Sequence record: OQ718158.1
Reading direction: 5' to 3' (one strand)
Length of the DNA: 64,000 nt
Source of the DNA: Escherichia phage vB_Ec-M-J
Below are positions 24,021 through 24,353 of the stretch, piece by piece. Position numbers and translations under genes: made by a program. Numbering within the stretch: position 1 is the stretch's first letter; every line of letters begins with the position of its first letter. Under the pieces are notes generated by a model, which saw nothing but the letters and a program-made list of their open reading frames with translations, made no database searches and was not told the origin of the DNA.

Positions 24021-24353
24021 ATGCTAAATCTAGTTATCCAAGGTAATGTTGATATTACTCCAGCAATCAATGACGCAATTCATGCTGAAGCAAATGCACT
24101 AACGAAGTTTAGTGATTCTTCAGTACTGCATATTGGTGTTCATGTGAAGAAAGAGCATAAGAATCAATATTTCGTAACTTTAACATCAGGCGGTAAGAGT
24201 GTTACAGCCGATGATGCAGATTTATACAAAGCAATTGGTGATTCATTTGAAAAAATGGAAACTGTCTTAGGTAAAGACAAAAGCATCAAATTGCATCGCC
24301 GTAACCACCCCGAACATCCAGTTCAAGAAGACTTGACTGAAGACGAAGAGTAA
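24021..24353 (+). CDS. hpf: ribosome hibernation promoting factor / RaiA (YfiA) family protein
   Basis: 110 aa; near-collinear with E. coli HPF (NxxGxNVxIT start, TLTSGGKSVTADDADLYKAIG block). Confidence 0.75.
   Translation: MLNLVIQGNVDITPAINDAIHAEANALTKFSDSSVLHIGVHVKKEHKNQYFVTLTSGGKSVTADDADLYKAIGDSFEKMETVLGKDKSIKLHRRNHPEHPVQEDLTEDEE

What the first reader, a model, noticed from the sequence alone, without database searches (positions are those of the whole stretch)
24021..24353. Phage-encoded ribosome hibernation factor homologue
The 110-aa protein is near-collinear with bacterial HPF/RaiA. A phage copy implies direct manipulation of host ribosome state during infection, for example to stabilise ribosomes or block translation of host mRNAs. 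This is not a standard gene in T4-like phages.
Basis: partly seen in the sequence, partly recalled or inferred. Interest (0 to 1): 0.5.

Follow-up and report, generated by a model that had tools for sequence, protein, structure and literature searches.

The report
Jumbo-phage RaiA-like ribosome hibernation homologue
This 110-residue gene of a giant E. coli phage is a real but divergent relative of the bacterial proteins that park and protect idle ribosomes; related phage records and the literature already describe it, and its role in infection has never been tested.

Summary
The ORF at 24021-24353 (+) is real and encodes a true HPF/RaiA (Pfam Ribosomal_S30AE) homologue. It scores 41.1 bits against a gathering score of 23.7. 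[quoted passage not shown]

The window is not T4-like. It is an Asteriusvirus jumbo coliphage, 98.6% identical to phage BF17 over the 2.5 kb compared and part of the 121Q/PBECO4 group. The gene is core there and keeps its position (lysozyme, HPF, CCA-adding enzyme, Nudix, glutaredoxin) in at least four jumbo-phage lineages.

The protein is built like RaiA: a short core plus a disordered acidic tail, with no dimerisation domain. It is under purifying selection (dN/dS 0.12-0.27). It keeps about half of the conserved ribosome-contact residues; the equivalents of HPF R83, K91 and K26 are lost.

RefSeq already names the 121Q and PBECO4 copies "HPF/RaiA family ribosome-associated protein". Mizuno et al. 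2019 listed the GAP32 orthologue as a phage HPF.

The most likely function is canonical 30S binding that holds ribosomes as protected 70S monomers. This is inferred, not shown. Interest is low to moderate, and the finding is already known.

The parts
24021..24353 (+). CDS for a 110-aa HPF/RaiA-family (S30AE) protein: core residues 1-95 plus a tail of residues 96-110, net charge -7, ending DLTEDEE
   Evidence: ORF; Pfam PF02482 at 41.1 bits against GA 23.7; AF2 fold; Foldseek PDB hits; dN/dS 0.12-0.27; segment charges
24007..24015 (+). Shine-Dalgarno-like AAGGTAGGT, 5 nt before the ATG
   Evidence: Read from the sequence. An RBS is annotated at the equivalent place in UE-S1.
24362..24393 (+). 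Intrinsic terminator after the HPF stop codon: stem GGGACAG/CTGTCCC (24365-24371 / 24380-24386, extendable by AAA/TTT), then TTTTCTT
   Evidence: RNA fold -17.9 kcal/mol, z -5.0. The hairpin occurs once in the window. Each of 11 related phages has its own perfect GC-rich stem of different sequence plus a T-run at the same place. It is annotated as a terminator in UE-S1.
24333..24361 (+). Sigma-70-like promoter match TTGACT-17-TATAAT (11 of 12). It overlaps the 3' end of the HPF gene and abuts the terminator hairpin, and probably drives the downstream ORF 24408-24824.
   Evidence: Consensus scan. A TATAAT-like box is conserved just 5' of the hairpin in distant phages. Promoter-like sites are not enriched over shuffles overall, so this is tentative.
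23079..24005 (+). Upstream LysM/T4-type lysozyme gene. Its stop lies 15 nt before the HPF start, so co-transcription is likely. The true start is probably TTG 23079 after AAGGAGG, as annotated in BF17 and UE-S1.
   Evidence: Pfam Phage_lysozyme and LysM; annotations; the lysozyme-HPF adjacency is conserved across genera
22935..23028 (+). Putative promoter (TTGATA-16-TATACT with TG, 22935-22962) and a conserved leader element (GTAGAAAGTCCAA at 22994-23006 plus the GAGGC/GCCTC hairpin at 23008-23028) ahead of the lysozyme-HPF unit
   Evidence: The function of the element is unknown.
25995..27110 (+). CCA-adding tRNA nucleotidyltransferase, a conserved downstream neighbour of the HPF gene
   Evidence: Pfam PolyA_pol and PolyA_pol_RNAbd; synteny

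Best explanation
The gene encodes a RaiA-type member of the HPF/RaiA (S30AE) family. It is a short single-domain protein with a flexible acidic C-terminal tail and no long-HPF dimerisation domain. An ancestor of the Asteriusvirus/Mimasvirus/Eneladusvirus jumbo phages acquired it long ago, and it has been inherited vertically as a core gene inside a block of translation-maintenance and RNA-repair genes.

Most likely mechanism (inferred). The protein binds the cleft between head and body of the host 30S subunit through its conserved helix alpha2 basic face and beta-sheet, and occludes the mRNA and A/P-tRNA sites of vacant ribosomes. As in RaiA, the tail runs towards the RMF site. Ribosomes would then be held as inactive but protected 70S monomers rather than host-type 100S dimers.

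Possible benefit to the phage (more speculative). These large phages are reported from persistent infections. The protein could preserve and shield the ribosome pool in starved or defence-activated cells until phage translation can proceed.

Shown here: homology, fold, architecture, purifying selection, synteny and the terminator. Taken from a paper: expression of an orthologue. Inferred: ribosome binding, the binding site, the tail function and the physiological role.
For: [quoted passage not shown]

RaiA-like architecture: 110 aa against RaiA's 113 aa and HPF's 95 aa. The tail charge is -7 against -5 for RaiA. An acidic C-terminus is kept in all positional orthologues down to 21% identity.

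Ribosome-contact surface. Published cryo-EM work reports that HPF contacts lie mainly on helix alpha2 and the beta-strands (positions 80, 83, 87, 89, 91, 93, the aromatic at 30, and others), and that the YfiA tail heads towards the RMF site (bioRxiv 10.1101/2025.10.07.680626). The phage clade keeps K78, K85 and K87 (HPF K80, K87, K89), F/Y30, K29, E45 and R93/R94 invariant or nearly so. Helix alpha2 has the same net charge (+2) as in HPF. It is also the most constrained segment, with dN/dS 0.13 against 0.46 for helix alpha1.

Functional gene: dN/dS 0.12-0.27 overall and 0.21 in the tail; it has its own SD and a conserved terminator.

Expression: the fENko-Kae01 orthologue was detected by LC-MS/MS in a >300 kDa retentate of lysate.

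Context: conserved neighbours are a CCA-adding enzyme, Nudix, a 2H-like phosphoesterase, Macro and RlaP, plus RNA ligase and DUF2828 in other genera. Iyer et al. 2021 interpret these as counter-measures to host attacks on the translation apparatus (PMC7824862).

Lifestyle: Asteriusvirus is strongly enriched among persistent infections found in bacterial assemblies.

YfiA blocks RMF and HPF binding and 100S formation (PMC8126665).
Against: No ribosome-binding data exist for this clade.

Five of the 11 columns that are mostly K/R in cellular homologues are not basic in the Asteriusvirus proteins. These are the equivalents of HPF R17, K23 (E in this protein), K26, R83 and K91. R83, which contacts m4C1402, is lost in the jumbo-phage orthologues examined; K appears there in some Asteriusvirus members.

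One loop residue (HPF position 8) is deleted. TIGR00741 is below its cutoff, and the E. coli HPF equivalog model scores 19 bits against a cutoff of 125.

A phage HPF from another clade (rV5) was expressed but absent from salt-washed 70S (PMC6375957).

The MS detection in fENko-Kae01 is not specific. Soluble enzymes such as thymidine kinase were retained too, and the authors caution against drawing conclusions.

It is not obvious why a lytic phage that needs translation would silence ribosomes.
Confidence: 0.55

Rival explanations
1. Anti-hibernation decoy. The protein binds the same 30S site only weakly or transiently. It competes with host RaiA, HPF and RMF and prevents stable hibernation or 100S formation, so ribosomes of stationary-phase or stressed hosts stay available for phage mRNAs. 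Mizuno et al. proposed this idea.
For: Loss of several conserved contacts (the equivalents of R83, K91, K26, R17 and K23) would be expected to weaken binding. A RaiA-like tail could exclude RMF. The rV5 HPF did not survive high-salt washing. The hypothesis is stated. Host RMF rises during some defence responses.
Against: No affinity data exist. Helix alpha2 and the tail are strongly constrained, which is equally compatible with tight binding. Canonical RaiA itself blocks translation, so a bound decoy would still need to leave the ribosome.
Confidence: 0.2
2. Ribosome shield against host ribotoxins. The protein is part of the conserved RNA-repair island. It occupies the decoding centre to block A-site-dependent or rRNA-cleaving nucleases and RNases released by abortive-infection systems, while the neighbouring enzymes repair tRNAs.
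For: Conserved linkage with a CCA-adding enzyme, a 2H-like phosphoesterase, Nudix, Macro and RlaP, and with RNA ligase plus DUF2828/TROVE-like genes in other genera. Iyer et al. interpret these enzymes as counter-defence. That hibernation factors protect ribosomes from ribonucleases is established knowledge recalled from memory and was not checked here.
Against: Gene adjacency in a phage early region is weak functional evidence. Variable small ORFs and HNH genes interrupt the block. The gene next to HPF is a lysozyme, not an RNA enzyme. No specific toxin is implicated.
Confidence: 0.15
3. Neofunctionalised small RNA-binding protein. The S30AE fold resembles a dsRBD. The protein would have lost ribosome binding and would act on another RNA, for example phage mRNA leaders or tRNA repair intermediates, or on a protein partner.
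For: Basic residues on helix alpha1 are lost and that helix evolves fastest, with dN/dS 0.46. The clade is isolated, with no homologue outside Asteriusvirus above about 37% identity. TIGR00741 is below its cutoff. Weak BFVD fold hits include dsRNA-binding proteins.
Against: The best-conserved segments are those that contact the ribosome in HPF: helix alpha2, the aromatic at position 30 and the beta2-beta3 region. The RaiA-like acidic tail is conserved across genera. All significant structural matches are ribosome hibernation factors.
Confidence: 0.08
4. Decaying or non-functional passenger gene picked up recently from a host.
For: Some Salmonella-phage records carry truncated copies; SD-15_S21 has an in-frame deletion of residues 22-57.
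Against: dN/dS is 0.12-0.27. The gene is present in all Asteriusvirus records and keeps its position across genera. Its GC content (0.372) matches the phage (0.366). Identity is only 27% to host RaiA, with no BLASTP alignment to host HPF. The truncated records also have fragmented neighbouring genes, which suggests poor assemblies.
Confidence: 0.02

Closest known systems
E. coli RaiA (YfiA, protein Y), the ribosome-associated inhibitor A
   Same: Single S30AE domain with the same predicted fold. Similar length (110 against 113 aa). A C-terminal extension beyond helix alpha2 ends in an acidic run (DLTEDEE against FVEEVEEE). No dimerisation domain. It is the only host paralogue detectable by BLASTP.
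   Different: Only 27% identity over 81 residues. The equivalents of R17, R23, K26, R83 and K91 are not basic. The beta1-alpha1 and beta2-beta3 loops are shorter. An invariant VHVKKEHK motif in beta2 is specific to the clade. The gene is phage-encoded in a lysozyme/CCA-enzyme context, not the host raiA locus.
E. coli short HPF (YhbH), which works with RMF to form 100S ribosomes
   Same: Same fold and family. Helix alpha2 has the same net charge (+2). The K80, K87 and K89 equivalents and the aromatic at position 30 are conserved.
   Different: HPF is 95 aa and has no tail. There is no BLASTP alignment. The HPF equivalog model NF007780 scores 19.1 bits against a cutoff of 125. A RaiA-like tail is expected to be incompatible with RMF binding.
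Annotated orthologues in related jumbo phages: 121Q gp533, PBECO4 (UniProt L7TII8), GAP32 gp183 (in Mizuno et al. 2019, Table 1), Yen9-04 g181, fENko-Kae01 ENKO_218
   Same: Same gene in the same position, lysozyme then HPF then CCA-adding enzyme, Nudix and glutaredoxin. All have an acidic C-terminus and a conserved downstream terminator. Identity is 76-99% within Asteriusvirus.
   Different: Identity falls to 21-33% between genera. The other genera keep the K26 and K91 equivalents that Asteriusvirus has lost. Annotation is inconsistent: 'hypothetical protein' in BF17, 'putative sigma 54' in several records, and unknown function in PHROGs (phrog_34864).
rV5-like phage HPF (ABI79209), the only phage HPF tested experimentally (Mizuno et al. 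2019)
   Same: A phage-encoded S30AE-domain protein of about 105 aa in a large coliphage.
   Different: A different clade. No rV5-like phage appears among the tblastn hits of this protein or of P0015, and its reported peptides do not resemble this sequence. It was expressed but not recovered in salt-washed 70S, so that negative result cannot be transferred directly.
Long HPF of Firmicutes, Thermus and others (for example S. aureus, B. subtilis)
   Same: The N-terminal domain is homologous. PDB chains 5njt_x, 6gzx_V3 and 9t0z_9 are among the best sequence hits.
   Different: Long HPFs are about 180-190 aa and carry a C-terminal dimerisation domain that makes 100S ribosomes on its own. The phage protein has only a 15-residue disordered tail.

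Membership tests
HPF/RaiA superfamily (Pfam PF02482 Ribosomal_S30AE) | Sequence match to the family profile above the curated gathering score | tested here: met
   41.1 bits against GA 23.7, E 3.1e-10, profile positions 5-84 of 88
HPF/RaiA superfamily (Pfam PF02482 Ribosomal_S30AE) | [quoted passage not shown] | tested here: met
   AF2 model with pLDDT 77.8 and that element order. The top 36 Foldseek PDB hits are all HPF/YfiA/pY, TM up to 0.76. This is a predicted structure, not a solved one.
HPF/RaiA superfamily (Pfam PF02482 Ribosomal_S30AE) | Conserved basic and aromatic residues that contact 16S rRNA (HPF positions 26, 29/30, 45, 80, 83, 87, 89, 91, 93) | tested here: inconclusive
   Kept: K29, F/Y30, E45, H46, K78, K85, K87, R93/R94. 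Lost: the equivalents of K26, R83, K91, K93, R17 and K23. Helix alpha2 net charge is unchanged at +2.
HPF/RaiA superfamily (Pfam PF02482 Ribosomal_S30AE) | Binds the 30S decoding-centre cleft and blocks the tRNA and mRNA sites | not testable with these tools
   Needs biochemistry or cryo-EM. The only indirect datum is MS detection of the fENko-Kae01 orthologue in a >300 kDa fraction, which is not specific.
TIGR00741 yfiA equivalog (NCBIfam) | Score at or above the curated equivalog cutoff | tested here: not met
   33.1 bits against a cutoff of 40.9. It should therefore be named at family level only, as PGAP does ('HPF/RaiA family ribosome-associated protein').
RaiA/YfiA subtype | Single domain plus a C-terminal extension of about 15-20 residues past helix alpha2 (acidic in E. 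coli) that runs towards the RMF site | tested here: met
   Residues 96-110 score low in the model (below pLDDT 50 from residue 102) and carry charge -7; RaiA 98-113 carries -5. The feature is conserved in all jumbo-phage orthologues. The path of the tail on the ribosome was not tested.
RaiA/YfiA subtype | Prevents RMF/HPF-dependent 100S formation and stabilises inactive 70S | not testable with these tools
   The property is known for E. coli YfiA (PMC8126665). No data exist for the phage protein.
Short HPF (YhbH, NF007780/PRK10470) | About 95 aa, no tail, score above the equivalog cutoff | tested here: not met
   19.1 bits against a cutoff of 125; no BLASTP alignment to E. coli HPF; a tail is present
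Long HPF | C-terminal dimerisation domain, total length about 180-190 aa | tested here: not met
   The protein is 110 aa and no second domain was found in the Pfam scan

The most novel reading that the evidence does not exclude
The HPF homologue may be the ribosome-directed arm of an ancient, syntenic 'translation-apparatus maintenance' island. The island includes a CCA-adding enzyme, a 2H phosphoesterase, Nudix, Macro and RlaP, with RNA ligase and a TROVE-like protein in sister genera. It would let these giant phages hold host ribosomes in a protected, RMF-independent 70S state. This would support the slow or persistent infections for which Asteriusvirus is notably enriched, or resistance to ribosome-targeting abortive-infection toxins. 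On this reading the protein is a phage-controlled hibernation switch, not a simple copy of a host gene.
Probability: 0.2. Interest if true: 0.6.

Novelty: already known. Interest (0 to 1): 0.3.

Why it matters
Phage-encoded ribosome hibernation factors have been catalogued, but none has a demonstrated function.

This clade is a good test case. The host is E. coli, where RaiA, HPF and RMF genetics and ribosome structures are mature. The gene is core to a lineage of giant phages that turn up unexpectedly often as persistent infections in bacterial isolates. It also sits among genes thought to defend the translation machinery.

Showing whether it freezes, protects or un-freezes ribosomes would say how large lytic phages cope with starved or defence-activated hosts.

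As a sequence observation, however, it adds little to what databases and Mizuno et al. 2019 already contain.

Tried and rejected
(1) Recent transfer from the host. Rejected: 27% identity to RaiA, no alignment to HPF, no homologue outside the Asteriusvirus clade above about 37% among 1.84 billion representatives, and GC content equal to the phage.

(2) Pseudogene or passenger gene. Rejected by dN/dS and by conservation across genera.

(3) 'Sigma-54 modulation protein' or 'sigma factor', as several GenBank records call it. From my own knowledge this is a historical misnomer of the family. Nothing sigma-related was found.

(4) The conserved motif upstream of the lysozyme gene as a general phage promoter. 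Rejected: it occurs once in 64 kb.

(5) An Rfam search of 21000-28000 at E<=1 found nothing.

(6) tRNA genes near the locus. None in the window.

(7) The word-indexed protein search found only the close clade, so the exhaustive profile search was needed.

(8) A 1605-aa tandem-repeat protein (P0014) scored high in the profile search. It is 29 repeats of about 53 aa matching only profile positions 45-82, so I treated it as spurious.

(9) Virion packaging. The fENko-Kae01 MS data cannot distinguish virions from other complexes above 300 kDa. The phAPEC6 paper's main text does not mention the protein, and its supplements are not held.

(10) A GAP32-type RNA ligase in this window. Not found: the 412-aa ORF at 12211-13449 is an RlaP nucleotidyltransferase and is unrelated to the GAP32 ligase.

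(11) Polikanov 2012 could not be read. Di Pietro 2013 says nothing about the tail.

Full report
OBSERVATION.

An SD-like AAGGTAGGT lies 5 nt upstream of the ATG.

The protein matches Pfam PF02482 (Ribosomal_S30AE, the HPF/RaiA family) at 41.1 bits, with a gathering score of 23.7 and E 3.1e-10. The match is collinear over 80 of the 88 profile positions. The NCBIfam equivalog TIGR00741 aligns end to end but scores 33.1 bits, below its cutoff of 40.9. The E. coli HPF equivalog model reaches only 19 of the 125 bits required.

A phmmer search of PDB sequences returns only hibernation factors, as does a profile of the phage clade.

[quoted passage not shown] Foldseek against PDB gives 36 consecutive HPF/YfiA/pY chains before the first unrelated hit.

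WHAT GENOME THIS IS.

The region is 98.6% identical to Escherichia phage BF17 (383 kb) and 87-97% identical to the 121Q/PBECO4/phAPEC6 group, genus Asteriusvirus. These are jumbo myoviruses, not T4-like phages.

All Asteriusvirus-level records in the phage collection contain the gene. The same set of 32 Escherichia and 4 Salmonella records is recovered with the HPF protein and with the tail sheath.

Public records already carry the annotation. RefSeq calls the 121Q and PBECO4 copies 'HPF/RaiA family ribosome-associated protein'. Other records say 'ribosome-associated inhibitor A', 'ribosome hibernation promoting factor' or the old misnomer 'putative sigma 54'. BF17, the nearest relative, says 'hypothetical protein'. 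UniProt names the PBECO4 protein 'Ribosomal subunit interface protein'. PHROGs v4 files the clade under unknown function.

DISTRIBUTION AND AGE.

A word-indexed search of 5.8 billion proteins found only the close clade. An exhaustive profile search of 1.84 billion representatives found just 60 proteins at E<=1e-3. Apart from the clade's own representative, a truncated clade copy (P0013) and a spurious tandem-repeat protein (P0014), the top-ranked hits (P0015-P0018) are 103-107-aa proteins ending in ...SKR[HRK]...(T)[DE]xEE.

Three of these (P0015, P0016, P0018) are encoded on jumbo-phage-like contigs with the same gene order: 2H phosphoesterase, an unknown ORF, lysozyme, S30AE, CCA-adding enzyme, Nudix, glutaredoxin.

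The same order is annotated in four cultured phages:
- Klebsiella phage fENko-Kae01
- Erwinia phage Hallingskeid
- Cronobacter phage GAP32, genus Mimasvirus
- Yersinia phage fHe-Yen9-04, genus Eneladusvirus

Protein identity between these lineages falls to 21-33%. No homologue outside the Asteriusvirus clade exceeds about 37% identity. The gene's GC content (0.372) equals that of the window (0.366). E. coli RaiA is 27% identical, and E. coli HPF gives no BLASTP alignment.

The gene is therefore an old, vertically inherited core gene of this jumbo-phage lineage and not a recent capture from the host.

SELECTION.

Pairwise Nei-Gojobori dN/dS among six Asteriusvirus orthologues is 0.12-0.27. By segment it is 0.46 for helix alpha1, 0.22 for the sheet, 0.13 for helix alpha2 and 0.21 for the tail. 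The gene is functional. Its most constrained parts are helix alpha2 and, notably, the terminal residues of the disordered tail.

ANATOMY COMPARED WITH HPF AND RaiA.

E. coli HPF is 95 aa and has no tail. RaiA is 113 aa and ends ...FVEEVEEE. The phage protein is 110 aa and ends ...HPEHPVQEDLTEDEE. Its tail charge is -7 against -5 for RaiA. The core segments have charges like those of the host proteins, with helix alpha2 at +2 as in HPF. Every positional orthologue in the other genera also ends in an acidic run. There is no long-HPF dimerisation domain. Architecturally the protein is RaiA-type.

A recent cryo-EM study of four Gram-negative hibernating ribosomes makes three relevant points (bioRxiv 10.1101/2025.10.07.680626):
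- HPF contacts lie mainly on helix alpha2 and the beta-strands. The key positive residues are at positions 80, 83, 87, 89, 91 and 93. An aromatic at position 30 stacks on A790, and R83 contacts m4C1402.
- The last 12-14 residues of YfiA are never resolved.

I mapped these positions through a 72-sequence alignment.
- Kept, invariant or nearly so: K78, K85 and K87 (HPF 80, 87, 89), F/Y30, K29, E45 and R93/R94.
- Not kept: the equivalents of R83 (T, K or V), K91 (I or V), K93 (L or I) and K26 (variable), and on helix alpha1 R17 (N, H or Q) and K23 (E, D, G or S).

The sister jumbo clades keep the K26 and K91 equivalents but also lack R83. The Asteriusvirus clade has its own invariant basic motif, VHVKKEHK, in beta2.

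The ribosome-binding face is therefore recognisably retained but remodelled. I rate this membership feature inconclusive.

TRANSCRIPTION UNIT.

The upstream LysM/T4-type lysozyme gene ends 15 nt before the HPF start.

Directly after the HPF stop there is a hairpin, GGGACAG-N8-CTGTCCC, followed by TTTTCTT. It folds at -17.9 kcal/mol (z -5.0) and is unique in the window. Eleven related phages each have a perfect GC-rich stem of different sequence plus a T-run at the same place, and UE-S1 annotates it as a terminator.

A TATAAT-like box sits just 5' of the hairpin in most of these phages. In this window it pairs with TTGACT to give an 11/12 sigma-70 match, so this looks like a terminator/promoter cassette.

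A second sigma-70-like site (TTGATA-16-TATACT with TG) lies at 22935-22962, ahead of the lysozyme leader.

Promoter-like matches are not enriched over shuffled sequence overall, so timing of expression cannot be settled from sequence. If the sigma-70 matches are real they would point to host-RNAP (early) transcription, but this is only an inference.

CONTEXT.

Neighbours in the window include:
- an RlaP RNA-repair nucleotidyltransferase (12211-13449)
- thymidine kinase
- a weak 2H-phosphoesterase match (22501-22911)
- the CCA-adding enzyme (25995-27110)
- Nudix (27217-27630)
- glutaredoxin
- a weak Macro domain match (28450-28926)

In the sister genera an RNA ligase and a DUF2828 (TROVE-like) RNA-binding protein lie just upstream. 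I did not find that ligase in this window.

Iyer et al. 2021 interpret these enzyme families in jumbo phages as counter-measures to host attacks on the translation apparatus. They do not mention HPF/RaiA homologues (PMC7824862). A 2026 review of jumbo-phage biology does not mention them either.

PRIOR KNOWLEDGE.

Mizuno et al. (bioRxiv 2017; Nat Commun 2019, PMC6375957) listed HPF (Ribosomal_S30AE) genes in seven cultured phages: GAP32, whose copy is the positional orthologue of this gene, and six rV5-like phages. They suggested such proteins might compete with the cellular homologues and prevent ribosome dimerisation. They found the rV5 protein in cell extracts but not in high-salt-washed 70S ribosomes. 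The rV5 protein belongs to a different clade, so that negative result does not transfer directly.

The Sharanji paper lists the Asteriusvirus protein among translation-related genes, together with IF3, a CCA enzyme and a tRNA deaminase.

The fENko-Kae01 paper detected the orthologue by LC-MS/MS (6 spectra) in a lysate fraction retained by a 300-kDa filter. The authors warn that this shows only membership in something larger than 300 kDa. That could be virions or, equally, ribosomes. Soluble enzymes were retained too. The result does show that the orthologue is translated.

A survey of bacterial assemblies found Asteriusvirus among the three clusters most enriched in 'persistent' virulent-phage infections.

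I found no experimental study of this clade's protein.

MECHANISM.

The best-supported reading is a RaiA-like factor. It would bind the 30S head-body cleft through helix alpha2 and the sheet, occlude the mRNA and A/P-tRNA sites of vacant ribosomes, and send its acidic tail towards the RMF/anti-SD region. Ribosomes would then be kept as inactive, protected 70S monomers rather than 100S dimers. Each of these properties is known for YfiA.

Every step after 'is a homologue with this architecture' is inference.

Rivals are listed with probabilities in the rival explanations: an anti-hibernation decoy with weakened binding, a shield against ribotoxins that works with the neighbouring repair enzymes, a neofunctionalised RNA binder, and a decaying passenger gene. 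The last is effectively excluded.

VERDICT.

The 'T4-like, non-standard gene' framing is wrong, because this is a core gene of a jumbo-phage lineage. The functional implication is untested.

The finding is already present in public annotation and in the literature.

This analysis adds several points:
- cross-genus synteny and the age of the gene
- the RaiA-type acidic tail as a conserved feature
- the pattern of retained and lost ribosome contacts
- the selection profile by segment
- the transcription-unit boundaries

Interest is low to moderate (0.3).

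Noticed in passing
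window 22994-23028 (leader of the lysozyme-HPF unit); equivalents in L004, L006, L007, L012, L013: A non-coding element, GTAGAAAGTCCAA followed by a GAGGC...GCCTC hairpin, is almost invariant in six jumbo phages whose HPF proteins are only about 30-46% identical. It occurs once in the 64-kb window, has no Rfam match, and shows almost no covariation (1 of 8 pairs). Its function is unknown; it could be an operator, a processing site or a specific promoter.
   Followed up: partly
window 23031-23075: In the minimum-free-energy fold of the lysozyme leader, the strong SD (AAGGAGG, before the probable TTG start at 23079) pairs with an upstream CCCUCUUUG stretch. Similar complementary stretches are visible by eye in UE-S1, L006 and fENko-Kae01. 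This may mean translational control of the lysozyme gene. The fold's z-score is not significant (-0.41).
   Followed up: partly
window 24333-24393: A sigma-70-like promoter match (TTGACT-17-TATAAT) abuts the terminator hairpin after HPF. The TATAAT-like box plus hairpin arrangement recurs in distant relatives. It is reminiscent of the promoter/stem-loop cassettes described in T4-type phages; that comparison is from memory and was not checked.
   Followed up: partly
window 12211-13449, 22501-22911, 25995-27110, 27217-27630, 28450-28926, 29267-29644: A translation-maintenance and RNA-repair theme runs through the neighbourhood: an RlaP nucleotidyltransferase, a 2H-like phosphoesterase (below the Pfam cutoff), a CCA-adding enzyme, Nudix and Macro (just below the cutoff). 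By position, the ORF at 29267-29644 (125 aa) appears to correspond to an fENko-Kae01 gene whose record notes HHpred similarity to peptidyl-tRNA hydrolase. The order is syntenic across at least four jumbo-phage lineages. RNA ligase and DUF2828 lie upstream in the sister genera but were not found here.
   Followed up: partly
window 25037-25450 and 25437-25859: Two adjacent overlapping ORFs (137 and 140 aa) are paralogues: 33% identity, E 2e-8, with a shared ...FIDDTF... motif. They lie in the variable stretch between HPF and the CCA-adding enzyme, whose content differs between phages. No family match was found.
   Followed up: partly
L014 2501-2725 (Salmonella phage SD-15_S21); SD-1_S14, SD-2_S15 and SD-6_S16: The HPF gene has an in-frame deletion of residues 22-57 in SD-15_S21 and only partial matches in three sister records. 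The neighbouring lysozyme is also fragmented, and the genomes are 20-40 kb shorter. This is probably assembly quality and not biology.
   Followed up: partly
protein P0014: A 1605-aa predicted protein consists of about 29 tandem copies of a 53-aa unit (MKTDISVSVKAARKAIHQVEAKLYETVEDSYTKLAGFLNDLVAQNAGYIKAFE). It scored 125 bits against the phage HPF profile through repeated weak matches to positions 45-82. It is likely a rolling or misassembled repeat, and its origin is unknown.
   Followed up: no
window 23052-24005: The mechanical ORF call starts the lysozyme at TTG 23052. BF17 and UE-S1 annotate the start at the TTG equivalent to 23079, which follows a strong AAGGAGG. This lysozyme is not the LysUE1 enzyme characterised in the UE-S1 paper.
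   Followed up: yes
window 168-2000, 2812-4002 (-), 44665-46074: Other recognisable genes in the window are an anaerobic ribonucleotide reductase NrdD, an RCC1-repeat protein on the minus strand, and a DUF2201 metallopeptidase/VWA protein. No tRNA genes occur in the 64 kb.
   Followed up: no
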